Shown here: piece by piece, positions 16,644 to 27,268 of the stretch
Position numbering within the stretch: position 1 is the stretch's first letter
Layout: each line of letters starts with the position of its first letter
Source of the DNA: a virus
Strand: one strand, 5' to 3'
DNA: 64,000 nt
IMG/VR virus record: IMGVR_UViG_3300033145_001047
Span: 1 to 64,000 of that record
Translations under genes and position numbers: made by a program
Notes under the pieces: generated by a model
The model's input: only the letters and a program-made list of their open reading frames with translations
What the model was told of the DNA's origin: nothing
Database searches by the model: none

Positions 16644-17606
16644 CTATGCTACCTGGAGGCTGTGTTTGATCGCGTCGATCTCTACGGTCGCGTCGGCTTC
16701 TTCCAGCTTGAAGTCGATACGCATGGTTATCGTCACTTCGACGATTCTTTTCCTGGGGACTCGCTCCATTTCCAGCATCACATCTCTGTGAACGCCATAG
16801 ATGAAGTTCTTCGGGTTAATCAGCAAACCCTTCGAGCCGTAGACCGTCGGCGTACCGGCATCCACGTCTTCCGTCAGTATTGCCGGGACCTTCACAACGT
16901 CTATGCCCTGGTACGTGGGCGTCTGTGCTTCGAGCAGGTAGCGGGTGAACGCTTCGGACACGCCCACGTCGGCCAGCTCAGAAATGTAGTCCAGTCTCGC
17001 CAGGTGGGAGACGTAGAATCGGAAGTTGTTTTCGTCGTCGATGTACTTCCCCGGCATCGACTGGTACGCGGTCTTGAGCACGTCCGGGCTCAGAGTCGCT
17101 TCGAGTGCATCGTAGACATTGCCCCCGGCGGTCGTCTGCTTGAACATTCCGTCCAAGACATCCAGGACGGTCCCACCTGTTCCGGCACTGTCTCCGTAGA
17201 GACTGAGCCAGTCCATGTCGAACGCGGCCTTCGCCTGGGTCAAGTTCATGATCGTATCCATGATACGACCGCCTTCGATTGAGTCCTCCAGGGCATCGTA
17301 TCCGATGTCCGTGGCGATTATGACCTCCTCGGCGGACAGGACGACTTTACTCGTCACCGGCTCCGTTATGGTCGTGTGCTCCGTACCCTGGGCCACCGGC
17401 TTCTGCAGCACTCGGGCCGAGTAGGTTATCTTGTCTATCTGTCGCTTGTTCGCGGTCATTGCCTCACGGCGATACTCCGCTATCAGGACAGACTTGTCGA
17501 TGATTCCGCGCACGAATGAGCCAGCTTGTTCGGGGTTCAGGAGTCCCCCGTTCGCCAGGTCGCTCGTATCAAACGCTTTCTCAAGAACTTCGTCTATCGT
17601 CTTCAT
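16644..17606 (-). CDS. Major capsid protein (HK97 fold, PBSX XkdG-like)
   Basis: KAFDTSDLANGGLLNPEQA-x-x-F N-terminus, LEDSIEG, NPKNFIYG, and position after the protease and scaffold. Start reassigned to the ATG at 17606 (GGAGG RBS). Confidence 0.9.
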   Translation of the reverse strand: MKTIDEVLEKAFDTSDLANGGLLNPEQAGSFVRGIIDKSVLIAEYRREAMTANKRQIDKITYSARVLQKPVAQGTEHTTITEPVTSKVVLSAEEVIIATDIGYDALEDSIEGGRIMDTIMNLTQAKAAFDMDWLSLYGDSAGTGGTVLDVLDGMFKQTTAGGNVYDALEATLSPDVLKTAYQSMPGKYIDDENNFRFYVSHLARLDYISELADVGVSEAFTRYLLEAQTPTYQGIDVVKVPAILTEDVDAGTPTVYGSKGLLINPKNFIYGVHRDVMLEMERVPRKRIVEVTITMRIDFKLEEADATVEIDAIKHSLQVA

Positions 17607-17670
17607 TATGTTTCTGTCACCTCCCCTCAGTTTGCGATAGCACTTCCAGCACAACAGTATCCCGGATGGA

Positions 17671-19197
17671 CTACTTCCCCTTCAAGGCATCCTTGAACGG
17701 GTCGGCCCCTCCGCTGGTCTTGTCTTTCTCTTCGACGTCCAGTGACGTCTTGATCGAGAACTTCTCTTCCAACACCTTGAGCGTTTTCTCGAACCTCTTC
17801 CCGAGGGTCTCTATGTCCTGGAGCCGCTTCTCAGCGGCGTCCTTCTTTTCCGTTTCCTTCTTCTCGGCTTCGACCTTCTCGGCGTCCGCCTTCTTCTCGG
17901 CCTCGGTCTTCTCCTCGGCTTCTTTCTTTTCCGCCTCGATCTTCTCGTCGGCTTTCTTCTTCTCGGCTTCGGCTTCCTCGGCTTTCGCCTTCTCCGCCGC
18001 TGCCTTCTCTTCGTCGGTCAGCATGAACCCCGCGCTTTTCAGCTCGGCGACCATTGCCTCGACAGTTTCACCGATTCCCTTGAGGGCCTCGATGGGCTCT
18101 GAAAGTTCTGACTTCAAAGCCTCGAACTCTTCTCTCAGTTTCTCCAGCTCGTCCACTTGTGAACTCACCCCCTTTTCAGTTGAATCCCCCGCCTCGGCGA
18201 CTATGGCCTGTAACGCGGCCTCGATTTTCTCCGCGCTTATTTCCCGGCCCTCCTTCTCGACCTCAGTGAGAGGTTCGAGCTGCTTATCGAACACAGCGTC
18301 CATCATCTGGAACGCGAAGTCCTTGCAATCGTCGATGATCTCGTTAATGGCACCGTCCGGTTCCTCGATTTCGGCGCTCATGAGCACGGTCTCGGTGACC
18401 GCGTACCTCATAGCGTCGAACATCCTCTCAATTGCCACGCCTCTCAGGTGACGCTTGAACCAATCCACCATGACTTCCTTCGGTGTCTTGTCCGCCGCCT
18501 TGATCTTCTTGGCCATTTTCAGCAGCGTGTTTTTTGCCACGCTCTTGAGTTCCTCGAACAGCTCGGTGATCTCCGCCTTCTTCTCGGCGAGACTCAGCTT
18601 GTCGTCGTAGGCCGTCCACCAGAATCCCTCCTGGAGTGTCTCGACCGCCGCCTCGGACATCTTGATTATCAGTTGGGCGTTGAAGTGCACTATGGCCATA
18701 GACTTGATAATCACTTCCGGGAAGTCCATGTCCAGCTTCTTGTAGTATTTCTTCGCGTGGTTCAGGACGCGCTTCTTGTCCTCGGTCGGTATCTTGGCCG
18801 ACCGGATTCTCTGCACCACTGCGAAGATTGCCCTGGGGACGGCCTTGAGCGTCCCGCCGACGATGTCCGCGTACGGCAGCTTGTACCCGCCGAACTCTTT
18901 CGCGTTCTTCGAGTCGTACCACATGAATCCCTTGCGGTACTTCGCCCAGTCGATGTCGTCCTTCTTAGGACCACCGGCCCACTTCGCCAGCCTCTTCTTC
19001 GCTGCACTTGCGTCCCACGCTCTTCCCTTCGCAGCAAGAGGAAGGCCCTGGTACGACGTCGCACCCTTGACCTCGACGACCTTCTCGTCGCGTCTCTTAT
19101 ATAGAAGTATCTGAGCGTCGGGGACGGCGGGGCGGTCTACGATTGCTATTCGATCCACACGAGTAGCTCTCAAATTATACAACGCTTCCGGTGACAT
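17671..19197 (-). CDS. Capsid scaffold/assembly protein
   Basis: N-terminal IAIVDRPA protease-like strand, an inserted WD...YKLPYAD domain, and a long E/K coiled coil ending DPFKDALKGK. Confidence 0.7.
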   Translation of the reverse strand: MSPEALYNLRATRVDRIAIVDRPAVPDAQILLYKRRDEKVVEVKGATSYQGLPLAAKGRAWDASAAKKRLAKWAGGPKKDDIDWAKYRKGFMWYDSKNAKEFGGYKLPYADIVGGTLKAVPRAIFAVVQRIRSAKIPTEDKKRVLNHAKKYYKKLDMDFPEVIIKSMAIVHFNAQLIIKMSEAAVETLQEGFWWTAYDDKLSLAEKKAEITELFEELKSVAKNTLLKMAKKIKAADKTPKEVMVDWFKRHLRGVAIERMFDAMRYAVTETVLMSAEIEEPDGAINEIIDDCKDFAFQMMDAVFDKQLEPLTEVEKEGREISAEKIEAALQAIVAEAGDSTEKGVSSQVDELEKLREEFEALKSELSEPIEALKGIGETVEAMVAELKSAGFMLTDEEKAAAEKAKAEEAEAEKKKADEKIEAEKKEAEEKTEAEKKADAEKVEAEKKETEKKDAAEKRLQDIETLGKRFEKTLKVLEEKFSIKTSLDVEEKDKTSGGADPFKDALKGK

Positions 19198-19210: not shown

Positions 19211-20374
19211 TTATTTAATCGGCTCTCGGACTCCTGCGATTCGTACGGAGAATCCCTTGTACTCTCCGCTCAGGACCTTGTTCCACACATCCTTGTCGTG
19301 GATTTTCACGGCCCCGAACCACGTGCCCTTCTTCAACTTCGTGTCGAAGAACTTGATGTCGTCGCGCCACGCGACTGCCGATTCGACGATGTCTGCACGG
19401 ATGATATCCTTGTGCATCTCGTCTATAACCCGATAGTCCACGATGAAACCGTGAGCTACCTTTTCTACGTCCTCGGTGGAGATAACGTCACCGTGATGGT
19501 CCGCCTCCTCCGGGACAAGGAACACGCCGTAGAGGAGCTGCTTCATCTTGTCGACTTTGACAATCTGTTGCTCACCCTCTCCGGACATGACTGATATGTC
19601 GACGATGGTCTCTTCGAGAGACTTGCCTACCATTTGCGTCCCGCACTTCGGGCACTTCTTGTTCGAGCAGGGAATTCCCTTCTCGTGAGCAATCTCGACA
19701 CCACATTCAGGACATACACACTTCGAGGCACCCCCGTCACCTTGACGCGACCCTCCCTGTCCTTGTCCTTGTCCTCGTGCTTTTGAGTCTTCGTCTTCGT
19801 GGTAGGATTTATTGACCGTGTCTTCGGGATTGTCTGCAGGAACGAGGCCAGCCTCTACTTGTTCGCCTACCTGGGTGTTATCCACTGAGCCTTCTCCGTA
19901 GTCCTCGGGTTCCTTTCCTGAAAGTATACCGGCGTCTTCTTCTGTGTCAACTCCTGATTCAGTATTTTCTTCCGTATTTTCGGGCTCCTCTACGTCGATC
20001 ACTTCCTTCGGCTCTGCATCTTCTTCCTCTTTCTTGACTTCCTCCTCGCCGTTCTCCAGGGCGAACGCCTTCCCCTGGGGCCAGAACGCCCTGGGTCCTT
20101 CCTCGAATACGGCGATAATCTTCGTGAAGCCGTCCTCCGCTTTCCCGACCTCGGTGAGGGAGAGAATCTTCGGGTGGCGCTCCTCGACCCAGTTCTTCGC
20201 CGTCTCTTCCGTCCAGCCCTTCGACGTCATGAAGGAATACGTGACGATCTTTCTGTCGTCCAGACAGTACAGCGCCTTGATTCCCTCCTCCTCGCATACC
20301 ATGATCGTCCGGACCTGGTGCCCGTGGTGTCCCCCGTTCTCTTCGGGGACGAGTACTCCTATCTCTTCGCTCAT
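19211..20374 (-). CDS. XkdF-like prohead serine protease
   Basis: C-terminal YGVFLVPEEADHHGD...IDEMH...VES...KGTW...W-x-KV-x-SGEYKGFS. Internal CVCPECG...PC-x-x-x-KCPKCG module. Confidence 0.85.
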   Translation of the reverse strand: MSEEIGVLVPEENGGHHGHQVRTIMVCEEEGIKALYCLDDRKIVTYSFMTSKGWTEETAKNWVEERHPKILSLTEVGKAEDGFTKIIAVFEEGPRAFWPQGKAFALENGEEEVKKEEEDAEPKEVIDVEEPENTEENTESGVDTEEDAGILSGKEPEDYGEGSVDNTQVGEQVEAGLVPADNPEDTVNKSYHEDEDSKARGQGQGQGGSRQGDGGASKCVCPECGVEIAHEKGIPCSNKKCPKCGTQMVGKSLEETIVDISVMSGEGEQQIVKVDKMKQLLYGVFLVPEEADHHGDVISTEDVEKVAHGFIVDYRVIDEMHKDIIRADIVESAVAWRDDIKFFDTKLKKGTWFGAVKIHDKDVWNKVLSGEYKGFSVRIAGVREPIK

Positions 20375-20712
20375 TACAGGCTCCCCTTTCCGAGAGTGTC
20401 CTCGACTATCTTCTTGTCGTGGTCATGCTCTTCCGACTTCGTGACATGTATGTTCAGAACGCCGTCCTTCCGCTGAATAACGTGGAAGGTGTCCCCGCTG
20501 TTCGCCTCTTGCGCCAGGAAGCGGAGGACATCTCCGCTGAACTTCACCGCGCCGACCGTGATGATGTCCGTCGCGTTGTCATATTTGAAGACGAACATCT
20601 CGTCCAGCTTCTTCTGCAGTGCGCCCCTCTTCTTGTCGAGCACCGCCTTCACGATGTCAAGCACCACGATCACCGCCAGCACCACCATCCACACCGCCGT
20701 CCATATCTCCAT
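20374..20712 (-). CDS. Small membrane-anchored hypothetical protein
   Basis: MEIWTAVWMVVLAVIVVLDIV hydrophobic N-terminus. Start reassigned to 20712. Confidence 0.65.
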   Translation of the reverse strand: MEIWTAVWMVVLAVIVVLDIVKAVLDKKRGALQKKLDEMFVFKYDNATDIITVGAVKFSGDVLRFLAQEANSGDTFHVIQRKDGVLNIHVTKSEEHDHDKKIVEDTLGKGSL

Positions 20713-20714
20713 GT

Positions 20715-20975
20715 TTAATACCTCTCGGCCTCCGCCAGGTCTTCCTTGATTCGGTCCTTGATAAACTGCCGGACCTTTGTCGCCTCCGCCTCCGTGATCT
20801 CCACGGCACCGTCGGACTCCCCGGTAATATACCGCGACAGCTCCGGGTCCGCCACCCACTTGTCCGAGTCGTCGATGTGCTCGAACGATATCTCGTCCTC
20901 GGTCTCGGTCATACGGAACAGGCCGCTCGGCAAGTTCACTCCGATTCCCACGATCTTGAAGTACTTCACGCTCAT
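20715..20975 (-). CDS. Small acidic protein, candidate immunity protein
   Basis: 86 aa, coupled by an ATGA overlap to the RelA/SpoT-like gene. YF...W...EITE-x-EA pattern. Confidence 0.6.
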   Translation of the reverse strand: MSVKYFKIVGIGVNLPSGLFRMTETEDEISFEHIDDSDKWVADPELSRYITGESDGAVEITEAEATKVRQFIKDRIKEDLAEAERY

Positions 20976-21646
20976 ATTCCCAGTGCTCCCTCGGGGACCC
21001 GGACGTCTTCCTCCCAGGTTTTCCGGAGTGTCTCGATATATCCCTTCCTCTTCTTGTCGCTCCTCGTCTCCTGCAGCTTCTTATATACCGGGTGAGAGAC
21101 TCGTTCCTTGACGTCCAGGCTCTTCGCCGTGTGGAACTGCAGCTCGAACTTCTTGCCGGTCGGGTCGGTGACGACGGTGTTCACTCCCTTGTACACTCCC
21201 TGTCCGGCCTTCTTCGGGTTCCAGTAGTTCTTCACCTCGTCGACCTTGTAGCCCTTCTTCTTGAGCGTCCCCAGGGTGTTCTTCACCCCCGCCGTGTAGT
21301 TCTTCTCCGGGAACTGCACCGTGTACCTGAGCGAATCGTTCAGGCGGTTGGTCGTGACGTTGTTCACGTTCATGGCGGGGTTCGCTTTCAGCTCCCGCTT
21401 GATCTTCGTCACCATCGAGTCCTTCGTCTTGAACTTGTACTTGAGCCCGACCATCTTCCCTTTGTTCGCTTTCGCCGACGCTTTCATAGCAGCGGTCACC
21501 TGTTTCTCGGCAGCTCTCGCCGTGGCCATGACGGTGTCCGCCGTGACCTCTATCTGCAGATTGAGCGGAGCTGACCCGAAGCCGAGAATCTTCGCGCACG
21601 GATTCAGGATACCGGACCCCGCCCCCTTCAAGTATATCCTCACCAT
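20972..21646 (-). CDS. RelA/SpoT-like nucleotide pyrophosphokinase (SAS, Apk2/Tas1-like)
   Basis: Synthetase-like motifs in the expected order: KFKTKDSMVTKI, NDSLRYT, YKGVN, FELQFHT, SHPVYK. Confidence 0.78.
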   Translation of the reverse strand: MVRIYLKGAGSGILNPCAKILGFGSAPLNLQIEVTADTVMATARAAEKQVTAAMKASAKANKGKMVGLKYKFKTKDSMVTKIKRELKANPAMNVNNVTTNRLNDSLRYTVQFPEKNYTAGVKNTLGTLKKKGYKVDEVKNYWNPKKAGQGVYKGVNTVVTDPTGKKFELQFHTAKSLDVKERVSHPVYKKLQETRSDKKRKGYIETLRKTWEEDVRVPEGALGI

Positions 21647-21903
21647 GCCCGGACCTCGTAGAACTTCGCCCCGATGTCTTCCTTCTTGTCGAACACGTAC
21701 CCCTTCTCCGTGATGTACTTCTCGAACCGCTCGGCCAGCTCGACTTCCTTCTCCCCGTCTATGATGATACCGAGCTGTGCCAGCACGTAGTCCTCGAACG
21801 GTCCCACCATCGTCGCGGGGTAGTCCTCGCTCCTCACCATCTTCAACAGCACGAGGAACGAATCGAACAGCTCGACCTCTTCGGCGAATATGTAGTTAAT
21901 CAT
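21640..21903 (-). CDS. Small acidic hypothetical protein (possible immunity partner of the MuF C-terminus)
   Basis: MINYIFAEEVELFD..., 87 aa. ATG overlaps the MuF stop (ATGA). Confidence 0.6.
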   Translation of the reverse strand: MINYIFAEEVELFDSFLVLLKMVRSEDYPATMVGPFEDYVLAQLGIIIDGEKEVELAERFEKYITEKGYVFDKKEDIGAKFYEVRAW

Positions 21904-23063
21904 ACGGCCAGCCCGTGCATCTTTCTGCACTCGCGGTATTGCCGGGACAGACTGCCGAACTGTTTCTTCGGGACCTTCGCAATCGTCGCCGCCTGTTGGC
22001 CGCTGTACTTCCCGAGGAGCTGGTACGCCTTGTTCACCTGTCCGGCGCGGACCATCTTCTGGAGACGGTTCAACTGTGCCAGGGGCATCTTCATCATTTG
22101 CATGATACCCACGCCGCCCTCGGACATCGGCTTCGCGTAGAGCTTCTGCATTGCCGCGTCCCGACCCTTCGGCTGACTCACCTGTCCGCCGGTCCAGGGG
22201 ATGGTACAGTCCTTCGAGTCTCCTTTCTCCCCCTTGCAGTACGTGACCTCCTCTATGACAGGATACTCCGCACACCGACAGTTAATGACCTCCTCCGCCG
22301 CTCCGCCTGGGTCCAGGGGATGCAGTAGCCCGTTCGAGAATCGCTCTTTGATTCCGATTTCCACCCCGTCCAGGCCCACGTGAGTCGCCCTGGTCGCCCC
22401 GTCTATCAGAGCCCTCCAGCCCTTCTTCGTGACGTCGTTCCGGACATACGTCTCGTGCTGCACCGTCTGACTCGCTATGCCGGTCTCCGTCCGGGCTATC
22501 GTCCAGGCTCTCTTCGGGTACGTCTTGGCGAACATGCCCTTGATATCCTTCCGAACCTGGTACGGGGACAATCCCTCTTTCATGTACCCGGTGTAGAGCG
22601 TGTTCTGGAACTTCTTGAGCGTAGTCGCGGAGATGTCGCCGGTGATCTTGGTCCCCCGTCTCCGCAGCTCGTCCATGACGCCGGGGTCCTTGAGATGGAA
22701 GGCCAGGGAGATACCGAGGTCCTTCAATCCCGCCGCGCCCCCCAGGTTCCCGCCCCTCTCCTCGTAGTGGTGCAGGACGTCCTCCATCTTGTCGTCACCG
22801 ACGCGCTTGTCCCAGTCCTTGAAGAAGTAGTCGATCACTTCCCGGTCGGCGGTCTCCGACTTCTCGATCTCCTCCTCGCTCTTTTGAAGGACTAGGCGCT
22901 TGTCATAGAGTTCGGGGTGTTCCTTGCGGGAGTATGCGGCCAGCTTCTCCCAGGCGTCCTCGTCGCTGAGCATCTTCATCGTACCGGCGAACTGTTCCTC
23001 GAAGACTTTCTTCAAGTCCTTCTGGCAGTCACGGACGGCGACCTCGAAGCCGACCGACTTCAT
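21900..23063 (-). CDS. MuF / SPP1 gp7 minor head protein with C-terminal extension
   Basis: IARTET...KKGW...D-x-x-TR-x-TH...P-x-DP...EVINCRC, then about 110 extra residues. Start uncertain. Confidence 0.88.
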   Translation of the reverse strand: MKSVGFEVAVRDCQKDLKKVFEEQFAGTMKMLSDEDAWEKLAAYSRKEHPELYDKRLVLQKSEEEIEKSETADREVIDYFFKDWDKRVGDDKMEDVLHHYEERGGNLGGAAGLKDLGISLAFHLKDPGVMDELRRRGTKITGDISATTLKKFQNTLYTGYMKEGLSPYQVRKDIKGMFAKTYPKRAWTIARTETGIASQTVQHETYVRNDVTKKGWRALIDGATRATHVGLDGVEIGIKERFSNGLLHPLDPGGAAEEVINCRCAEYPVIEEVTYCKGEKGDSKDCTIPWTGGQVSQPKGRDAAMQKLYAKPMSEGGVGIMQMMKMPLAQLNRLQKMVRAGQVNKAYQLLGKYSGQQAATIAKVPKKQFGSLSRQYRECRKMHGLAV

Positions 23064-23115: not shown

Positions 23116-24597
23116 CTACGCCTCGGGACCGTCCTCGTCGAGGTAGTCCGAGGCGTCCGTGTCGCCAAGTCCCTTTTCGCTACCGAGTTCTCCAGCCTTG
23201 AGGCTAGGGTCTGTATCGGAAACTTTTCCAGTGTCACTTTTCTCCACCTTCTCACCTACCGGCACAAAGTTCGACACGACGTAGTATATGTCACCGCCGT
23301 CATACGGCTCCTCGCCTCGCGCTCTCAGTATATCGTTCGGAGTCTTCACCCCCATCCCGACGTCGATCTCGTCTATCTCAGACTGCAGCTTCTCGTCAGT
23401 GATGTCGATGTCCAGGAACTCAAGTGTGTAGCTGTCGATCTCGAACACGTCCTTGATAATCAGCTCGTTGAATATCCACTGGAATTGATTCTGCCGAGGA
23501 GTGACCACGCTCTCCAGGTATATCTGGTCGACGTCTCGCGCCACGCTGCCGCCGAGCTGCCCCTTAATAACGATTCCGGCCCGGTACGGGGGAACGTGGT
23601 GGGCCGTGAGGATGTCGTCCTTATTGTCTTGCCGGAACATCCGGAAGGACGCTTCCTTCGTCTCGACACTCAGGCGCTCGAAATGCACCTTGCCGCCGCC
23701 CTTGAGCGTGAACACCAGAATCCGGTGGGGGTTCTTCACGAGTTCGGTCTCGAAGTACTTCTGTATCTCTTCCTTGACACCCTTCCCGAGCTTCGCACCC
23801 TCGACGACCACCGCGTACGCCGGGACACCGAAGTGAGTGAAGAACTCCATATTGAACTCTTTCTCTTTCTGTTCCCCGAACATGGTGAATACAGCCGGGA
23901 GCCACTCGGGGGCTCCGTAGTAGTTCGACTTCCAGGTGTACTGGTAGACCTGTATGAGTTCGTGGGCTTGCTTCTCCGGCGGTGTCGATTCCTTGAACTC
24001 GCCGGTCTCCCGGTTCAGTATCCGCTCGTCGCCGAACCGCTTGAAGTACACCTTGTTCATGCCGACCTTCTGAATCCAGCGTTCCTTGTCGGACATGAGG
24101 GCGACCGTCGTCGAGTTCACATGGTAGAGGGTGCACTTCTTCTCCTCGGTGATACCGCGCACGACCTCGAAGTATCCGTTCCCGCATCCCTCGTAGTCTA
24201 TGCCGGTCTTCTTGCACAGCTCGGATACGTCGGAGTTCTCGTTCACTCTCTTGAAGAACTCGTTCAACTGATTGTACTCGGTGTCGGTCGCGTTCTTCCC
24301 CTCGACCTCGACCAGCTTCCAGCCAACACCGAATGAGTCTTGTATCTTCGTCCGGATGCACGAGGCATGTGTGACCGATATGTCCATCCACTGCAGCAGC
24401 TTCTTCTGGTCGTACGGGGGCTTGATAACCTGCTTGCCCCAGTTCTGCTCCTCGACCTGTTGCGTCTGAGGCATCTCGAACCGCTTAAGGTCCCGGTCAG
24501 AGAACAGCCGACCCCTGTCTGTGATGTACAGGGTCTCCAGCAGTCCTTCCTTTTCGTCTCCGCTCTTGTCCTTCTTCGTCGTCTTCTTCTTGGCCAT
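23116..24597 (-). CDS. Portal protein (PBSX family)
   Basis: PPYD, H-x-SCI-x-x-K, GNGYFEV, YYGAPEW, AHHVPPYRAGI, TPNDILR. Position after terminase. Confidence 0.92.
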   Translation of the reverse strand: MAKKKTTKKDKSGDEKEGLLETLYITDRGRLFSDRDLKRFEMPQTQQVEEQNWGKQVIKPPYDQKKLLQWMDISVTHASCIRTKIQDSFGVGWKLVEVEGKNATDTEYNQLNEFFKRVNENSDVSELCKKTGIDYEGCGNGYFEVVRGITEEKKCTLYHVNSTTVALMSDKERWIQKVGMNKVYFKRFGDERILNRETGEFKESTPPEKQAHELIQVYQYTWKSNYYGAPEWLPAVFTMFGEQKEKEFNMEFFTHFGVPAYAVVVEGAKLGKGVKEEIQKYFETELVKNPHRILVFTLKGGGKVHFERLSVETKEASFRMFRQDNKDDILTAHHVPPYRAGIVIKGQLGGSVARDVDQIYLESVVTPRQNQFQWIFNELIIKDVFEIDSYTLEFLDIDITDEKLQSEIDEIDVGMGVKTPNDILRARGEEPYDGGDIYYVVSNFVPVGEKVEKSDTGKVSDTDPSLKAGELGSEKGLGDTDASDYLDEDGPEA

Positions 24598-24598
24598 G

Positions 24599-27268
24599 CT
24601 ACTCGACCTCCATCACGTTCATGATCTCGTTCTCCAGTAAGTGATTGACCACGCCACAGGTCGCGTCCCATACGTCCTTGCTTCCCGTCGTCGGGTGGTC
24701 CACCTTCTTCCCCTTTATCAGTTCCAGGCCACCCATCTCTTTTTCGAGGACGTCGTTCGGATATGTCCTCACGCGGCCCTGGTATATCTGCTCCTTGTAA
24801 TTCTCGCAAGCCTCAAGTGATTCTACACTCTGACGGTCGGCTATGAAATCTTTCTTCCTCAACTCCTGGAGACTACTCGCGGACTGGAACTGGTCGTACG
24901 TCACTATCTCTATATCGAAGCCCCTCTTCCGCAGCTCCACGACCGTGTCCCGGATGTCCGCCAAGTCGATCTCCCCGTCCTCCGGCGCTTCGATGTGGTG
25001 CGCCAGGTCGATGATAATGGTCTGACTCTCGGCGTGTCCCATGCCTATCCCGGCCCGGTCCCTCTTGAGGCCCAGGTCGATGTGGATATAGTAGGACTCG
25101 TCCGGGTCGCCGACAAACCAATCGAAGAAGCGACCGTCCTCGTCCACCGGGTCCCGCATCCTGTCGACGAAGATGTCCTGCACCAGCTTCCACCGCTTGA
25201 GGTATCTCTCCAGCGCCAGGCTCGGACGGGCTCCATAATCTCGCCAGGACTTCTCCGGGTTCTTCTCGAAGTCCTTCTTGTACTTGTTCGGTATCTTGTG
25301 GTCTTTCTCCCCGTCGTTCAGGGTGAAGTAGTCGCCGCGCTCGATATCCTCGATGTCCTCGACCCTGACCTCCCATATCGCCCGGCGCTTGCAGAAGATG
25401 CTGTCGTCTGTCTCCGCTCCCTTCGCTTGCTTCTCGATGAAGTCGTCGACGTACCTGGGCTGCGATATCATGACGAGCAGTCCGTGGAAGTCGAACCGCG
25501 TCTTGATACGCCGGTCCAGGGTGTAGAACATATCGGACGCGACGTCGTGTTCTTTCGTGACAGTGTAGTACGCGGCCTCGTCCATCACCGCCGCTATGAG
25601 GTTATATCCTAGCGGGAAGTTCGAGCCAGAGTGTCCGGGTATCATGCAGATATGATTCTCGAATCGCAGCTCGGACTTAATGTTCGGGTCAGGCTTGTGG
25701 TCCTGAAACCACGGACTGTTGTTAATCCTCGACTGGGTTCCACCGAAGACGACCTTCTTCGCCTGTATCGCGTTCACGCTCATGTTGAGTATTGCTATCA
25801 GGTCGTTCTCGTCTATATGGAAGGACTCGTGCGGGTTCTCCATACATAGGAGATGGTGGATATAGTACGCGAGGATGATCGAGGTCTTGTACGAGTTATG
25901 GGTGACCGTGAAGTCTCCGAGTAGATATAGGTGTCCCCTATCGACGTTGAATCCGTAGTACTTCCCTCTCCCCATCTCCGTGACCGAGAACCCGGTAACG
26001 AGGACGCTCTTCTTCTGTAATCTTGGTTTCGTTTTCTTCCTGGGTATGCGGACAGGAATTTCGCTGACACAACCGGAGATGCTGACCCTGTAACTTCTGA
26101 ATCTCTTCCCATTGCACGTTGTCGTCCTCTCCTTCACGTAGGCCGCGAATCCAAGGGACCGAGCAATGAAGGCAGTGTCTTCACATAGCCGTTTATTCTT
26201 GTTCGAGAACTCATAACACCCGCCAGAAAGATGTCCGTCGGTGTCAATGAGTCCAGCCAGAACATCTAGCCTCACGTTCCGAGAGTTAGTTCGATAAATC
26301 TTAGGAACGTGTTTGTTCTTGATTAGATTGTATGCTTTCAGGGCATCGAGCAGTACGTTCGACTGCCCCCTCACTCCGCTACTTAATATGTATGTCGGGC
26401 ACGTCTTGTCCTTGTTATGATCGACGTTTATGCTCAGGTCGTATTGCTCGGCAATGTCGTAGAGATATTCCTTCATCTCAGGGTCCTTTGTCGTTACCCC
26501 CATGTGGTGGGAACTTCCGTCGCCTAGCCACACACCGAGCAGATACGGCTCCATCGTCACGCTCCCTTCGTTAGGAAAGCGGACGCCTGTCCTCCAGAGC
26601 TTGTGATTGTTCTTGAAGTTCTTGCTCTTTGATAGATAGTCTTTGACCGATATATCTACAATCCCTCCAGCCTGTCCGTCTTGCTTACCGCCGTTCGGTC
26701 TGCCGGTATTGATGATCCCCTTGTTCGTCCTCTTCAAACTCAGAATATGGTCACCGTTCACGACAAACGGTTCTCCCTTGATGGGAACTATCTCATACAT
26801 GTCGTCATATCCACGAGAGAGAGACTGCACCCTCCTTGGTTCGCTGTCTGGACCCATCACCATGTCACCGACTTGAACATCTTCGACCATTTTGATTTCG
26901 CCGTCGTACATCAGAATGGGAGTCCCCTTACCGTGACACTTCCCGCTGCCGACCGCTTCGTCGAACACCGCCTTCTCGTATGGACAGTACGCGAAGGCCG
27001 ACGGGTCACTGAACAGGTCCTTGAGGTCCTGCAGCACGGCGGGTCGGATGCTCTTGGACATGTTCAGGTAATAGTCGGACAGCACGAACTCCTCGATGAT
27101 AGCCGGTGCTTCCTTATACCTGAATCCATTCTCGTCAGCTCGGCACATCGACGCGAAGATGTCCTCGACGTTGTCTCGCTCGTCTGTCTCAGGTAATGAC
27201 GGCGACAGCACTGTCTGAGACGGTGACGTCTTCGACGCTTCCCTCAGCTTCAAGTTCAACGACTGCAT
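24599..27268 (-). CDS. terL: Terminase large subunit (intein-containing)
   Basis: Walker A GSGK|S split by the intein, Walker B AVMDEA, nuclease HIDLGLKRD, YDQFQS, KVDHP-x-x-GSKDVWDA. Confidence 0.93.
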   Translation of the reverse strand: MQSLNLKLREASKTSPSQTVLSPSLPETDERDNVEDIFASMCRADENGFRYKEAPAIIEEFVLSDYYLNMSKSIRPAVLQDLKDLFSDPSAFAYCPYEKAVFDEAVGSGKCHGKGTPILMYDGEIKMVEDVQVGDMVMGPDSEPRRVQSLSRGYDDMYEIVPIKGEPFVVNGDHILSLKRTNKGIINTGRPNGGKQDGQAGGIVDISVKDYLSKSKNFKNNHKLWRTGVRFPNEGSVTMEPYLLGVWLGDGSSHHMGVTTKDPEMKEYLYDIAEQYDLSINVDHNKDKTCPTYILSSGVRGQSNVLLDALKAYNLIKNKHVPKIYRTNSRNVRLDVLAGLIDTDGHLSGGCYEFSNKNKRLCEDTAFIARSLGFAAYVKERTTTCNGKRFRSYRVSISGCVSEIPVRIPRKKTKPRLQKKSVLVTGFSVTEMGRGKYYGFNVDRGHLYLLGDFTVTHNSYKTSIILAYYIHHLLCMENPHESFHIDENDLIAILNMSVNAIQAKKVVFGGTQSRINNSPWFQDHKPDPNIKSELRFENHICMIPGHSGSNFPLGYNLIAAVMDEAAYYTVTKEHDVASDMFYTLDRRIKTRFDFHGLLVMISQPRYVDDFIEKQAKGAETDDSIFCKRRAIWEVRVEDIEDIERGDYFTLNDGEKDHKIPNKYKKDFEKNPEKSWRDYGARPSLALERYLKRWKLVQDIFVDRMRDPVDEDGRFFDWFVGDPDESYYIHIDLGLKRDRAGIGMGHAESQTIIIDLAHHIEAPEDGEIDLADIRDTVVELRKRGFDIEIVTYDQFQSASSLQELRKKDFIADRQSVESLEACENYKEQIYQGRVRTYPNDVLEKEMGGLELIKGKKVDHPTTGSKDVWDATCGVVNHLLENEIMNVMEVE
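25895..26938 (-). mobile_element. Intein (348 aa) with LAGLIDADG homing endonuclease
   Basis: Begins CHGKGTPILMYDG, block B VNGDHIL, LLGVWLGDG and LAGLIDTDG motifs, ends VTHN followed by Ser. Confidence 0.95.

What the first reader, a model, noticed from the sequence alone, without database searches (positions are those of the whole stretch)
20715..23063. MuF followed by a stand-alone RelA/SpoT-like (Apk2-like) synthetase and two candidate immunity genes inside the head operon
Seen: portal, then MuF with a ~110 aa basic extension, an 87 aa acidic ORF, a 224 aa basic protein with all four synthetase-like motifs, and an 86 aa acidic ORF, all overlapping end to start. Established: MuF polymorphic toxins carry C-terminal toxins, including the (p)ppApp synthetase Apk2, with downstream immunity genes. 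Here the synthetase is not fused to MuF and has its own short N-terminus (YLKGAGSG, reminiscent of Gly-rich leaders of head-packaged proteins). Inference: a two-tier toxin-immunity array in which a virion-delivered alarmone synthetase is loaded independently of MuF, and the MuF tail may be an undescribed toxin.
Basis: partly seen in the sequence, partly recalled or inferred. Interest (0 to 1): 0.75.

Follow-up and report, generated by a model that had tools for sequence, protein, structure and literature searches.

The report
Split phage MuF alarmone-synthetase cargo module
An uncultured 86-kb phage carries, between its MuF head protein and its head protease, a free-standing toxin-type alarmone synthetase with its own predicted inhibitor, apparently one of several interchangeable cargo genes, which gives a handle on how phages load enzymes into their heads.

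Summary
On the minus strand, portal, MuF (387 aa, basic 112-aa tail), ORF87 (acidic), ORF224 (basic) and ORF86 (acidic) follow each other with overlapping stop and start codons.

ORF224 is a RelA/SpoT-type synthetase of the Apk1/Apk2/SaEAS toxin clade. It matches PDB 8VX3 at E 1.2e-19, has all five syn motifs, and its model (pLDDT 90) matches 8VX3 at TM 0.73-0.81.

ORF86 is conserved, is fused beside this synthetase domain in two large proteins, and is predicted to bind over the catalytic cleft (score 0.83, best control 0.01).

ORF87 is probably not a synthetase immunity protein. In related phages the MuF tail, ORF87 and a following cargo gene occur together in 3 of 3 lineages. None of the three is present in 13 other lineages. 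The cargo differs between lineages: synthetase, Zeta-toxin protein, and an unknown protein. All cargo proteins share a short Cys-containing N-terminal motif.

I read the locus as a split MuF effector module. Packaging, ejection and the enzyme's product are inferred, not shown. The genome has no detectable integrase and no HD hydrolase. Novelty: a new variant of a known kind.

The parts
23116..24597 (-). Portal protein (upstream context)
   Evidence: PF04860 E 1.5e-15; phrog_12 E 3.5e-38
22239..23063 (-). MuF core (aa 1-275)
   Evidence: PF04233 at aa 160-265, E 7.8e-12. phrog_2468 'head morphogenesis' E 6.2e-33. Relatives without a tail align only up to query residues 269-281.
21903..22238 (-). 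MuF C-terminal tail (aa 276-387). Basic (pI 10.1), with a conserved YRxC near its end. Proposed docking region for cargo.
   Evidence: Homologous tails occur only in L022 (E 5.9e-26) and L009-type phages (E 3.5e-8); alignment A6. No Pfam or PHROG match beyond about aa 285. AF2 model pLDDT 48.5. pI.
21640..21903 (-). ORF87: small acidic protein that travels with the MuF tail. Proposed adaptor or chaperone for cargo.
   Evidence: ATGA overlap with the MuF stop and ATGGTGA overlap with the ORF224 start. Homologues at 38-39% identity sit in the same position in L009-type, L015 and L022. No family match. No likeness to ORF86.
21545..21646 (-). ORF224 N-terminal leader (aa 1-34). Disordered; holds the protein's only Cys in the motif C-A-K-I-L-G-F-G-S-A-P.
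   Evidence: pLDDT 44-50 over residues 1-20. Outside the region shared with other synthetases. 33 of 38 residues identical to P0002 against 66% overall. Motif shared with the cargo proteins of L009, L015 and L022. Absent from the 157 other stored proteins, 151 of them synthetase relatives.
20972..21544 (-). ORF224 catalytic domain (aa 35-224): RelA/SpoT-type pyrophosphokinase of the Apk1/Apk2/SaEAS clade
   Evidence: 8VX3 E 1.2e-19; profile search 8VX3 5.5e-47 and Tas1 2.3e-8. AF2 pLDDT 90.1. Foldseek 8VX3 TM 0.73-0.81, then Tas1, RelP, RelQ, Rel, CapRel. Invariant K73, D104, R107, Y108, T109, Y152, E168, Q170, H172, K180.
20715..20975 (-). ORF86: small acidic protein, predicted cognate inhibitor of the synthetase
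   Evidence: ATGA overlap with ORF224. Three full-length homologues at 64-78% identity. An ORF86-like domain is fused next to the synthetase domain in P0060 and P0055. Complex model score 0.83 against a best control of 0.01.
20374..20712 (-). ORF112: N-terminal membrane helix. Its membership in the module is uncertain.
   Evidence: Sequence. No homologue in any related locus. Only a weak TIGR02609 match, E 0.024.
19211..20374 (-). XkdF-type head protease fusion (downstream boundary of the variable slot)
   Evidence: PF14550 E 9.6e-25. Conserved in all related loci directly after MuF or after the inserted genes.

Best explanation
The locus is a split version of a MuF effector (polymorphic toxin) module in the head operon of a complete, probably virulent, 86-kb phage.

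ORF224 is an active-looking RelA/SpoT-type pyrophosphokinase of the toxic Apk1/Apk2/SaEAS clade. It is made late together with the head proteins.

ORF86 binds over its catalytic cleft and keeps it silent in the producing cell. In this it is an analogue of IapK and Tis1, though unrelated to them in sequence.

The enzyme is not fused to MuF. Instead it carries a roughly 30-residue disordered N-terminal leader with a conserved Cys motif. I propose that this leader is recognised, directly or through the small acidic ORF87, by the basic C-terminal tail of MuF. The enzyme would then be taken into the procapsid and ejected with the DNA into the next host. There it would pyrophosphorylate adenine and/or guanine nucleotides, draining ATP and shutting down host metabolism.

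Shown here by computation: homology, fold, intact motifs, a predicted ORF224-ORF86 complex, and the co-occurrence of tail, ORF87 and leader-bearing cargo with cargo swapping.

Inferred: packaging, ejection, the role of ORF87, the product, and the effect on the host.
For: Synthetase:
- phmmer to 8VX3 (SaEAS) E 1.2e-19; profile search 8VX3 5.5e-47 and Tas1 2.3e-8.
- XopAD C-terminal domain E 6e-32.
- tblastn to the MuF::Apk2 genes of S. pneumoniae phages, about 33% identity, E 3e-16.
- AF2 model pLDDT 90.1; 37 PDB chains at E<=1e-3, and every one of the rows printed is an RSH enzyme.
- Five syn motifs and ten invariant residues are present.

Link to MuF delivery:
- phrog_7625 'head morphogenesis' matches ORF224 at profile positions 322-485 of 504.
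- 6 of 16 scanned relatives carry a MuF domain in the same polypeptide.

ORF86:
- Three homologues of the same length.
- An ORF86 profile hits only P0055 and P0060 among 153 stored proteins (E 5.8e-6 and 8.6e-6), in each case beside the synthetase domain.
- Complex prediction scored 0.83 (runs 0.83, 0.82, 0.85); the best of 3 controls was 0.01. This mark was reached by 58 of 80 solved complexes and 2 of 110 mismatched pairs. Runs agree in at least 81% of contacts and partner pLDDT is at least 87.
- The interface includes Y152, N156, Y188 and R192.

Loading module:
- Among 16 related lineages where the MuF end and the protease are both visible, the MuF tail, ORF87 and a following cargo gene occur together in 3 (window, L009-type, L022). 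All three are absent in 13.
- L015 adds a fourth ORF87+cargo pair, with MuF cut off by the contig end.
- The cargo differs: synthetase here; a 292/303-aa unknown protein in L009/L015; a 623-aa protein with Zeta_toxin (E 4.3e-15) plus an HExxH motif in L022.
- All cargo proteins share C-A-[KS]-x-[LF]-G-x-x-x-[AS]-P within residues 11-27. Shuffle tests (shuffles scoring at least as high as the real pair): L009 vs L022 4 of 5000; L015 vs L022 1 of 5000; window vs L022 120 of 5000; window vs L009 169 of 5000; window vs L015 177 of 5000.
- The motif occurs 3 times outside cargo N-termini in 1.04 million six-frame residues. Among the 159 stored proteins it occurs only in ORF224 (stored as P0001) and P0002, i.e. 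in none of the other 157.
- The stop/start overlaps MuF->ORF87->cargo are kept in all lineages.
Against: No experiment or proteome shows that ORF224 is in the virion.

The window's own leader resembles the other leaders only marginally (p about 0.02-0.035 per pair). A leader profile built without the window did not find ORF224 among the top 8 of 880 window frames. The motif was defined after seeing the sequences.

The three lineages with the module may be one clade. The 3-versus-13 pattern may therefore be a single evolutionary event.

The tail model is poor (pLDDT 48.5).

In relatives the same slot also holds homing endonucleases. It is therefore also simply a place where DNA gets inserted.

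In P0060 and P0055 the ORF86-like domain sits in the same polypeptide as the synthetase. That fits a regulator as well as a plain inhibitor.

That P0002 and P0156 lie on one contig is inferred only from equal contig length and source.
Confidence: 0.55

Rival explanations
1. The MuF tail is itself an undescribed toxin neutralised by ORF87. The synthetase is a second toxin neutralised by ORF86 and is loaded into the head independently of MuF.
For: Tail and ORF87 always occur together, as a toxin-immunity pair would. The tail is basic and ORF87 is acidic. Jamet et al. [quoted passage not shown] The ORF86 tier is supported.
Against: The tail has no family match. It models as a long disordered stretch plus short helices, pLDDT 48.5. 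Its conserved residues (W, GG, KM, KYSG, YRxC) do not look like a catalytic set, which is my judgement only. This reading gives no reason for three unrelated cargo proteins to keep a common N-terminal motif directly after ORF87. It also gives no reason for free-standing cargo to be absent wherever the tail and ORF87 are absent (0 of 13 lineages).
Confidence: 0.15
2. ORF224 and ORF86 form an intracellular module that is never packaged. It would be a moron-like toxin-antitoxin or host-manipulation pair that landed in an insertion hot spot of the head operon. It would act in the infected cell, for example in late metabolic shutdown, superinfection exclusion or counter-defence.
For: The slot between MuF and the protease also holds unrelated mobile genes in relatives: a Vsr/DUF559-type endonuclease in L005, a similar one by sequence inspection in L034, and by sequence inspection an HNH endonuclease in L021. 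Toxic small alarmone synthetases also exist as toxin-antitoxin modules (PMC12691689, introduction passages). Nothing here shows packaging.
Against: The cassette has no promoter-like or terminator-like sites of its own and is coupled by overlapping codons to MuF. The nearest relatives of the domain beyond P0002 are fused to delivery domains: MuF, WXG100 and large multidomain phage proteins. The conserved disordered leader and its association with the tail and ORF87 have no role in this reading.
Confidence: 0.2
3. The enzyme is not an alarmone synthetase but a tRNA 3'-CCA pyrophosphokinase, like CapRel, FaRel2 and PhRel2. This concerns only the product. It is compatible with any of the delivery readings.
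For: CapRel (7ZTB, 9ERV) and FaRel (8PU1) appear among the fold matches. The protein is very basic, pI 10.0.
Against: They rank far below the nucleotide-using enzymes. 8VX3 has TM 0.73-0.81 and E 1.5e-12; Tas1 has E 1.2e-5. CapRel has TMq 0.44-0.48 and FaRel 0.36. Sequence searches find only SaEAS and Tas1. The characterised relatives SaEAS, Apk1 and Apk2 make (p)ppApp and/or (p)ppGpp (PMC12691689 abstract; PMC12226406 abstract and section 3).
Confidence: 0.1

Closest known systems
[quoted passage not shown]
   Same: Same place in the genome: terminase, portal, MuF, then the effector before the scaffold and capsid genes. Same synthetase clade (about 33% identity, E 3e-16). A small gene directly downstream is predicted or known to block the enzyme by binding.
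   Different: In Apk2 the synthetase is the C-terminal domain of MuF (527 aa in phiARI0462). Here it is a separate gene, two genes downstream. No HD-type (p)ppApp hydrolase is found in the whole 86-kb genome. ORF86 shows no sequence likeness to the 69-aa ORF at the IapK position of phiARI0462. There are an extra MuF tail, ORF87 and a leader. No integrase was detected, whereas MuF toxins were reported for temperate phages (PMC5576092).
SaEAS, the exported alarmone synthetase of Streptomyces albidoflavus (PDB 8VX3), and the EAS family (PMC12691689; abstract, section 9 and passages read)
   Same: The closest solved structure and sequence. The same syn3 'YKG-N' and syn4 'E-QFHT' motif variants are visible in the alignment. 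The family is described as modular, joined to Sec signals and to WXG/LXG, XopAD, MuF, DUF4157 and Rhs/PAAR domains.
   Different: SaEAS is exported by a Sec signal peptide and has no immunity gene. ORF224 has a short non-signal leader, a partner gene, and sits in a phage head operon.
Tas1/Apk1 with Tis1 (type VI secretion effector, PDB 6OX6)
   Same: Same superfamily (profile E 2.3e-8; Foldseek E 1.2e-5, TM 0.55/0.62). A toxin neutralised by a bound immunity protein.
   Different: Delivered by PAAR/T6SS. ORF86 has no detectable sequence relation to Tis1. The Atlas lead to PF24154 scored only 0.78, which is chance level.
Phage polyvalent proteins (Iyer, Burroughs, Anand, de Souza and Aravind 2017; PMC5512222, passages read)
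   Same: The same repertoire: MuF with RelA/SpoT, ADP-ribosyltransferase and 2H phosphoesterase domains, thought to be packaged and injected. The nearest relatives of ORF224 have just such architectures. The paper notes that solo versions of such domains exist.
   Different: There the domains are joined in one polypeptide. Here they are separate, translationally coupled genes with a shared leader and a small accessory protein.
Capsid-targeting leaders of phage T4 internal proteins, and adaptor or chaperone proteins of T6SS/T7SS effectors
   Same: By analogy only: a short N-terminal peptide, or a small accessory protein, that brings interchangeable effectors to a delivery machine.
   Different: No sequence relation was tested. 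The mechanism here is not shown.

Membership tests
RelA/SpoT homologue (RSH) synthetase superfamily | Nucleotidyltransferase-type synthetase fold | tested here: met
   AF2 model pLDDT 90.1, pTM 0.86. Foldseek gives 37 PDB chains at E<=1e-3, and every row printed is an RSH enzyme; 8VX3 has TM 0.73-0.81.
RelA/SpoT homologue (RSH) synthetase superfamily | Syn1-syn5 motifs with the conserved acidic and basic residues | tested here: met
   KFKTKDSMVTK 71-81, DSLRYT 104-109, YKGVN 152-156, ELQFHT 168-173, HPVY 185-188. K73, D104, R107, Y152, E168, Q170, H172 and K180 are invariant in 53 sequences. D104 aligns with the position mutated (D121A) in the 8VX3 crystal; this is my reading of the alignment together. 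Pfam PF04607 itself does not match.
RelA/SpoT homologue (RSH) synthetase superfamily | Pyrophosphate transfer from ATP to the 3'-OH of a nucleotide (or of tRNA) | not testable with these tools
   Needs an enzyme assay. The product, (p)ppApp, (p)ppGpp or both, cannot be read from the sequence.
[quoted passage not shown] | Synthetase fused to MuF in one protein | tested here: not met
   MuF ends with TGA at 21900-21902. ORF87 lies between MuF and ORF224, and the frames differ.
[quoted passage not shown] | iapK-type and aph1-type immunity genes downstream | tested here: not met
   No likeness between ORF86 and the 69-aa ORF at the iapK position of phiARI0462. No HD_4 or HD domain anywhere in the genome. 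A functional analogue of IapK is predicted.
Exported alarmone synthetase (EAS) family (PMC12691689) | SYNTH domain homologous to Apk1/SaEAS | tested here: met
Exported alarmone synthetase (EAS) family (PMC12691689) | A signal peptide or a recognised export or delivery domain on the same protein | tested here: inconclusive
   There is only a roughly 34-aa disordered leader. Its link to MuF is by gene neighbourhood and a shared motif, not by a known domain.
MuF polymorphic toxin (PMC5576092) | MuF domain encoded directly after the portal gene | tested here: met
MuF polymorphic toxin (PMC5576092) | C-terminal extension carrying a toxin domain | tested here: not met
   The tail, aa 276-387, has no Pfam, PHROG, NCBIfam or PADLOC match, and its model is poor.
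Toxin-immunity pair (ORF224-ORF86) | Adjacent, co-conserved genes whose products bind | tested here: met
   Overlapping codons. Homologues of both genes exist. Domain fusion in P0060 and P0055. Complex model score 0.83 against a best control of 0.01; this is a model, not a measurement.
Toxin-immunity pair (ORF224-ORF86) | Toxicity of the enzyme and rescue by the partner | not testable with these tools
   Needs co-expression assays.

The most novel reading that the evidence does not exclude
The MuF tail and ORF87 form a trans-acting capsid-loading device. It recognises a short Cys-containing N-terminal leader (C-A-x-x-[LF]-G-x-x-x-[AS]-P) on interchangeable, separately encoded effectors: here an alarmone synthetase, elsewhere a Zeta-toxin/metallopeptidase protein and an unknown protein.

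The tether might be a disulfide between the leader's invariant Cys (the only Cys in ORF224) and the invariant Cys of the tail's YRxC motif. Such a bond would be broken in the reducing cytoplasm of the next host.

If so, probably virulent phages could swap injected effectors gene by gene without rebuilding MuF.
Probability: 0.35. Interest if true: 0.8.

Novelty: new variant of a known kind. Interest (0 to 1): 0.6.

Why it matters
MuF-linked toxins and polyvalent proteins are thought to ride in the phage head and enter the host with the DNA. How they are loaded, and whether they are delivered, is still a hypothesis in the papers I read (PMC5576092; PMC11699363).

All characterised members (Apk2, Bxa) are fusions to MuF, so the targeting part and the toxic part cannot easily be separated. 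Here the parts are separate genes: a MuF tail, a small accessory protein, a short leader, an enzyme and an inhibitor. Each step (binding, loading, silencing, release) could be tested with small constructs.

The locus also adds three things:
- a new, unnamed inhibitor family for Apk/EAS-type synthetases;
- an example without a product hydrolase;
- a case in a phage without a detectable integrase, which argues for a role in host take-over rather than in competition between lysogens.

Tried and rejected
1. Pfam RelA_SpoT does not match ORF224. This was overruled by PDB, NCBIfam, PHROG and fold evidence.

2. PADLOC gave no match for any of the five proteins.

3. ORF87 and ORF86 are not paralogues.

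4. My guess that the L009/L015 cargo is an ADP-ribosyltransferase rested on motifs seen by eye. It found no support: no Pfam hit, no PDB hit, no PHROG hit below E 0.03, and no hit of its profile to the ART-bearing relatives. I dropped it, and its function is unknown.

5. Leader profiles in leave-one-out tests were weak. The window's ORF224 was not in the top 8 of 880 frames. The L022 cargo ranked 1 of 92 (E 0.079). The L009/L015 cargo ranked 2 and 3 of 242.

6. Scans that found no relatives: viral contigs with ORF224 and with MuF; metagenome contigs with A1; genome contigs with the capsid alignment.

7. The genome-contig hit L038 (a Bosea MAG) is spurious. It lies in a wrong frame opposite a thioredoxin-like gene.

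8. The 84 Ralstonia 'phage' records are unannotated prophage records matched near their ends at about 27% identity. I did not pursue them.

9. ESM Atlas. ORF86's nearest clusters are unnamed 85-94-aa proteins (score 0.88-0.89, TM up to 0.80). The Tis1_ImmP lead scored only 0.78. ORF87 gave nothing usable.

10. The MuF tail model was too poor (pLDDT 48.5) to search by fold, so I did not.

11. Earlier notes of this scan held nothing on this locus.

12. Literature. Searches found no paper describing a separately encoded, MuF-linked cargo with a shared leader. This holds only for the library searched. Supplementary files of PMC5576092 (Ct_MAD profile, tables) and PMC12691689 (sequence lists) were not seen and might contain such cases.

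13. No complex of ORF87 with the MuF tail or the leader was modelled, because only one job was allowed.

Full report
**What is there**

The window is the first 64 kb of an 86,167-bp virus record with direct terminal repeats, rated 100% complete. All genes around the finding are on the minus strand. In transcription order they are:
- large terminase, 24599-27268;
- portal, 23116-24597 (PF04860);
- MuF, 21900-23063 (PF04233 at aa 160-265);
- ORF87, 21640-21903;
- ORF224, 20972-21646;
- ORF86, 20715-20975;
- a 112-aa ORF with an N-terminal membrane helix, 20374-20712;
- an XkdF-type head protease fusion, 19211-20374;
- a 508-aa scaffold-like protein;
- the major capsid protein, 16644-17654.

The junctions are ATGA (MuF/ORF87), ATGGTGA (ORF87/ORF224) and ATGA (ORF224/ORF86). 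GC at codon position 3 is 0.83-0.86 in the named frames. No promoter-like or terminator-like site lies on the coding strand inside the cassette.

**The synthetase**

Sequence evidence:
- ORF224 residues 34-221 match the exported alarmone synthetase SaEAS of Streptomyces albidoflavus (PDB 8VX3, deposited as 'SaSAS') at E 1.2e-19. The identity of that entry comes from PMC12691689.
- A profile of 53 relatives scores 8VX3 at 5.5e-47 and the type VI effector Tas1 (6OX6) at 2.3e-8.
- NCBIfam matches only the C-terminal 190 positions of the XopAD/skwp effector model (E 6e-32).
- PHROG 7625 'head morphogenesis' matches at profile positions 322-485 of 504. In other phages, then, this domain is the C-terminus of a MuF protein.
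- tblastn against 50,697 phage records finds 128 records. Of these, 35 are Streptococcus, 3 Pasteurella, 2 Haemophilus, 2 Aggregatibacter, 2 Mannheimia and 84 Ralstonia. In most rows printed for the first five groups the match lies in a 'minor head' or 'head morphogenesis' gene; the remaining rows are labelled only 'hypothetical protein'. Identity is about 29-34%.
- In phiARI0462 the order is terminase, portal, a 527-aa MuF protein, a 69-aa ORF and a 137-aa phosphohydrolase. This is the apk2-iapK-aph1 layout described in PMC12226406.

Structure evidence:
- The AlphaFold2 model has pLDDT 90.1 and pTM 0.86.
- Residues 1-11 are below 50, and the block covering residues 11-20 averages 50.
- Foldseek against the PDB gives 8VX3 first (E 1.5e-12, TM 0.73-0.81), then Tas1, RelP, RelQ, Rel, CapRel, RelA and FaRel.

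All five syn motifs are present. K73, D104, R107, Y108, T109, Y152, E168, Q170, H172 and K180 are invariant in the 53-sequence alignment.

ORF224 is therefore a RelA/SpoT-fold pyrophosphokinase of the toxic Apk1/Apk2/EAS clade and looks active. Characterised relatives differ in product: Apk1 and Apk2 make (p)ppApp, SaEAS makes both, and VpEAS and AaEAS make (p)ppGpp (PMC12691689 abstract; PMC12226406 abstract). I cannot tell the product here.

**How it is related to other members**

The exhaustive search found 3316 representatives at E<=1e-3 and 1917 at E<=1e-10. The shared region is query residues about 35-221.

Only one protein is close: P0002, 224 aa, 66% identical. The next-best hits are domains inside large proteins. 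Of 16 that I scanned with Pfam:
- 6 carry a MuF domain (P0006, P0008, P0019, P0036, P0042, P0131);
- 2 of those also carry an ADP-ribosyltransferase, and 3 a 2H phosphoesterase;
- one has a WXG100-like domain.

These are the 'polyvalent protein' architectures of PMC5512222, which lists RelA/SpoT fused to MuF and notes that solo versions of such domains exist. What is unusual here is that the enzyme stands alone next to MuF.

**ORF86**

- It has three homologues of exactly 86 aa at 64-78% identity. Their last 26 residues are nearly invariant (21 of 26 identical in all four sequences).
- One homologue, P0156, comes from the same source and a contig of the same length (8173 bp) as P0002. This suggests, but does not prove, that the pair is syntenic there too.
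- A profile of the four sequences, searched against the 153 stored proteins (151 of them relatives of the synthetase), hits only two. One is P0060 (E 8.6e-6, residues 940-1000, directly after its synthetase domain at 739-921). The other is P0055 (E 5.8e-6, residues 1399-1461, before its synthetase domain at 1524-1711).
- The complex model of ORF224 with ORF86 scored 0.83 (three runs: 0.83, 0.82, 0.85), against 0.01 for the best of three controls. That mark was reached by 58 of 80 solved complexes and 2 of 110 mismatched pairs. The runs agree in at least 81% of contacts and the partner's pLDDT is at least 87. My own alignments were used, so the calibration holds only roughly.
- The interface covers Y152, N156, Y188 and R192 and the residue next to D104. 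It therefore lies over the conserved cleft.
- ORF86 has no sequence likeness to the ORF at the IapK position of phiARI0462 and no family match.

I read ORF86 as a new, analogous inhibitor. Because it is fused to the enzyme in two proteins, a switch-like regulator is also possible. The genome holds no HD_4 or HD domain, so there is no Aph1-type second immunity.

**ORF87, the MuF tail and the leader**

Using the capsid and portal proteins I fetched related phage contigs and mapped the window's proteins on them.

Identical contigs are counted once. On that basis, the end of MuF and the protease gene are both visible in 16 lineages, including the window.

In 13 lineages MuF ends about where the window's residue 269-281 aligns. 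There is no tail, no ORF87 homologue and no free-standing cargo. These are L003, L005, L006, L011, L012, L016, L018, L020, L021, the L024 group, L028, L034 and L035. The protease follows at once in most. In the others a homing endonuclease or a small ORF intervenes. Examples are Vsr/DUF559 in L005, a similar Vsr-type ORF by sequence inspection in L034, by sequence inspection an HNH endonuclease in L021, and an 82-aa ORF in L006. Two have an intein in MuF: L028 by Pfam and L034 by sequence inspection.

In 3 lineages (window, L009 group, L022) MuF has a homologous tail: E 3.5e-8 for L009 and 5.9e-26 for L022. It is followed by an ORF87 homologue (E 3.5e-18 and 2.1e-13; 38-39% identity). That in turn is followed, with overlapping stop and start codons, by a cargo gene. 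A fourth case, L015, has ORF87 and cargo, but MuF is cut off by the contig end.

The cargo differs between lineages:
- the synthetase in the window;
- proteins of 292 aa (L009) and 303 aa (L015), 36% identical to each other, with no family or PDB match;
- a 623-aa protein in L022 with a Zeta_toxin domain (E 4.3e-15) and an HExxH motif.

No ORF86 or ORF224 homologue occurs in any of these relatives. So ORF86 goes with the synthetase, while ORF87 goes with the tail whatever the cargo.

**The shared leader**

Each cargo family has an N-terminus that is far better conserved than the rest of the protein. For ORF224 against P0002, 33 of the first 38 residues are identical, against 66% overall. For L009 against L015, 18 of the first 24 are identical by my count, against 36% overall.

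All cargo proteins contain C-A-[KS]-x-[LF]-G-x-x-x-[AS]-P within residues 11-27.

Shuffle tests on the first 41 residues gave the following (number of shuffles scoring at least as high as the real pair):

| Pair | Shuffles at or above the real score |
|---|---|
| L009 vs L022 | 4 of 5000 |
| L015 vs L022 | 1 of 5000 |
| window vs L022 | 120 of 5000 |
| window vs L009 | 169 of 5000 |
| window vs L015 | 177 of 5000 |

An earlier run gave 79 and 52 of 2000.

The motif, chosen after the fact, occurs 15 times in 1.04 million six-frame residues of the window and loci. Twelve of these are in cargo N-termini of overlapping loci, and 3 are elsewhere. Among the 159 stored proteins it occurs only in ORF224 (stored as P0001) and P0002, i.e. 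in none of the other 157 (99,104 residues in all).

Leave-one-out profiles were weak, and the one built without the window failed to find ORF224. The link between the L009 and L022 leaders is therefore solid. The window's membership is suggestive only.

The leader is predicted to be disordered. Its Cys is the only Cys in ORF224. The MuF tails share a YRxC near their end in 3 of 3 sequences. The tail alone models poorly: pLDDT 48.5, with about 59 disordered residues and then short helices.

**Mechanism proposed**

1. The head operon makes MuF, ORF87, the synthetase and ORF86 together.
2. ORF86 occludes the enzyme so that the producing cell keeps its ATP until assembly.
3. The leader, with or without ORF87, docks on the basic MuF tail, and the enzyme enters the procapsid.
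4. At the next infection the enzyme is ejected with the DNA and pyrophosphorylates nucleotides, which shuts down the host.

Shown by computation: the enzyme's family, fold and motifs; a predicted complex with ORF86; and the co-occurrence and cargo swapping. Not shown: packaging, ejection, the role of ORF87, the product, and whether ORF86 is left behind.

No tyrosine integrase or serine recombinase was detected in the complete genome. No capsid relative was found in 185,579 prokaryote genomes by a pattern-limited scan. The phage is therefore probably virulent. This fits an injected take-over enzyme better than competition between lysogens. It also differs from the reported link of MuF toxins with temperate phages (PMC5576092).

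**Rivals**

It does not explain the shared leader or the absence of free cargo where the tail is absent.
- A non-packaged intracellular module is possible, because the slot is also an insertion site for endonucleases.
- A tRNA-modifying activity is less likely, given the ranking of fold and sequence matches.

**Limits**

- The three lineages with the module may be one clade.
- The module is rare in the collections searched: the window, four viral contigs in two lineages (L009 group and L022) and one metagenome contig.
- Supplementary files of the papers were not available.

**Verdict**

This is a real, well-supported stand-alone Apk2/EAS-type synthetase with a predicted cognate inhibitor. It sits in what looks like a split, modular form of the MuF effector system. 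That makes it a new variant of a known kind. Interest 0.6.

Noticed in passing
window 24599-27268 (- strand): The large terminase is 889 aa. Relatives' terminases of 561-601 aa align only to its residues ~27-111 and 459-881. The roughly 347 residues between them look like an intein with a LAGLIDADG-type endonuclease (the sequence shows LAGLIDTDGH). I ran no Pfam scan on it.
   Followed up: partly
L028 3414-5426; L034 2298-4310: In two related phages MuF itself is 670 aa because an intein is inserted at the conserved VINCRC motif. For L028 this rests on Pfam Intein_splicing and LAGLIDADG_3 matches. For L034 it rests on sequence inspection only.
   Followed up: partly
L005 5773-6492; L034 4552-5310; L021 4942-5277: In relatives the slot between MuF and the head protease holds free-standing endonuclease genes. 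They are Vsr/DUF559-like in L005 (Pfam), Vsr-like by sequence inspection in L034, and an HNH type in L021 (sequence inspection only). The slot is therefore an insertion hot spot.
   Followed up: partly
window 20374-20712 (- strand): A 112-aa ORF with an N-terminal membrane helix sits between ORF86 and the protease. It has no homologue in any related locus. Its only match is weak (TIGR02609 'doc_partner', E 0.024). Whether it belongs to the cassette is unknown.
   Followed up: partly
window 19211-20374 (- strand): The XkdF-type protease domain (aa 270-378) is the C-terminus of a 387-aa protein. That protein has a conserved N-terminal region and a variable middle part with Cys-rich zinc-ribbon-like motifs. 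Relatives have versions of 252-417 aa that lack or keep the middle part.
   Followed up: no
window 17671-19197 (- strand) and related loci: In the 508-aa scaffold-like protein the first ~40 residues are conserved in all relatives, while the middle is very variable. The homologues are 386-922 aa long.
   Followed up: no
L022 5033-5815: After the Zeta-toxin-type cargo of L022 come small ORFs of 73, 91 and 143 aa with no Pfam match. They are possible cargo-specific partners, analogous to ORF86 and ORF112.
   Followed up: no
L038 5776-6153: The only genome-contig hit for ORF87 (a Bosea MAG) lies in a non-coding frame opposite a thioredoxin-like gene. It is a false positive of the pattern scan.
   Followed up: yes
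Phage records ON170028.1 and similar: 84 unannotated Ralstonia 'phage' records match ORF224 at about 27% identity, and 8 of the 9 rows shown match near a record end. These might be skwp/XopAD-type effector genes at prophage borders. I did not examine them.
   Followed up: no
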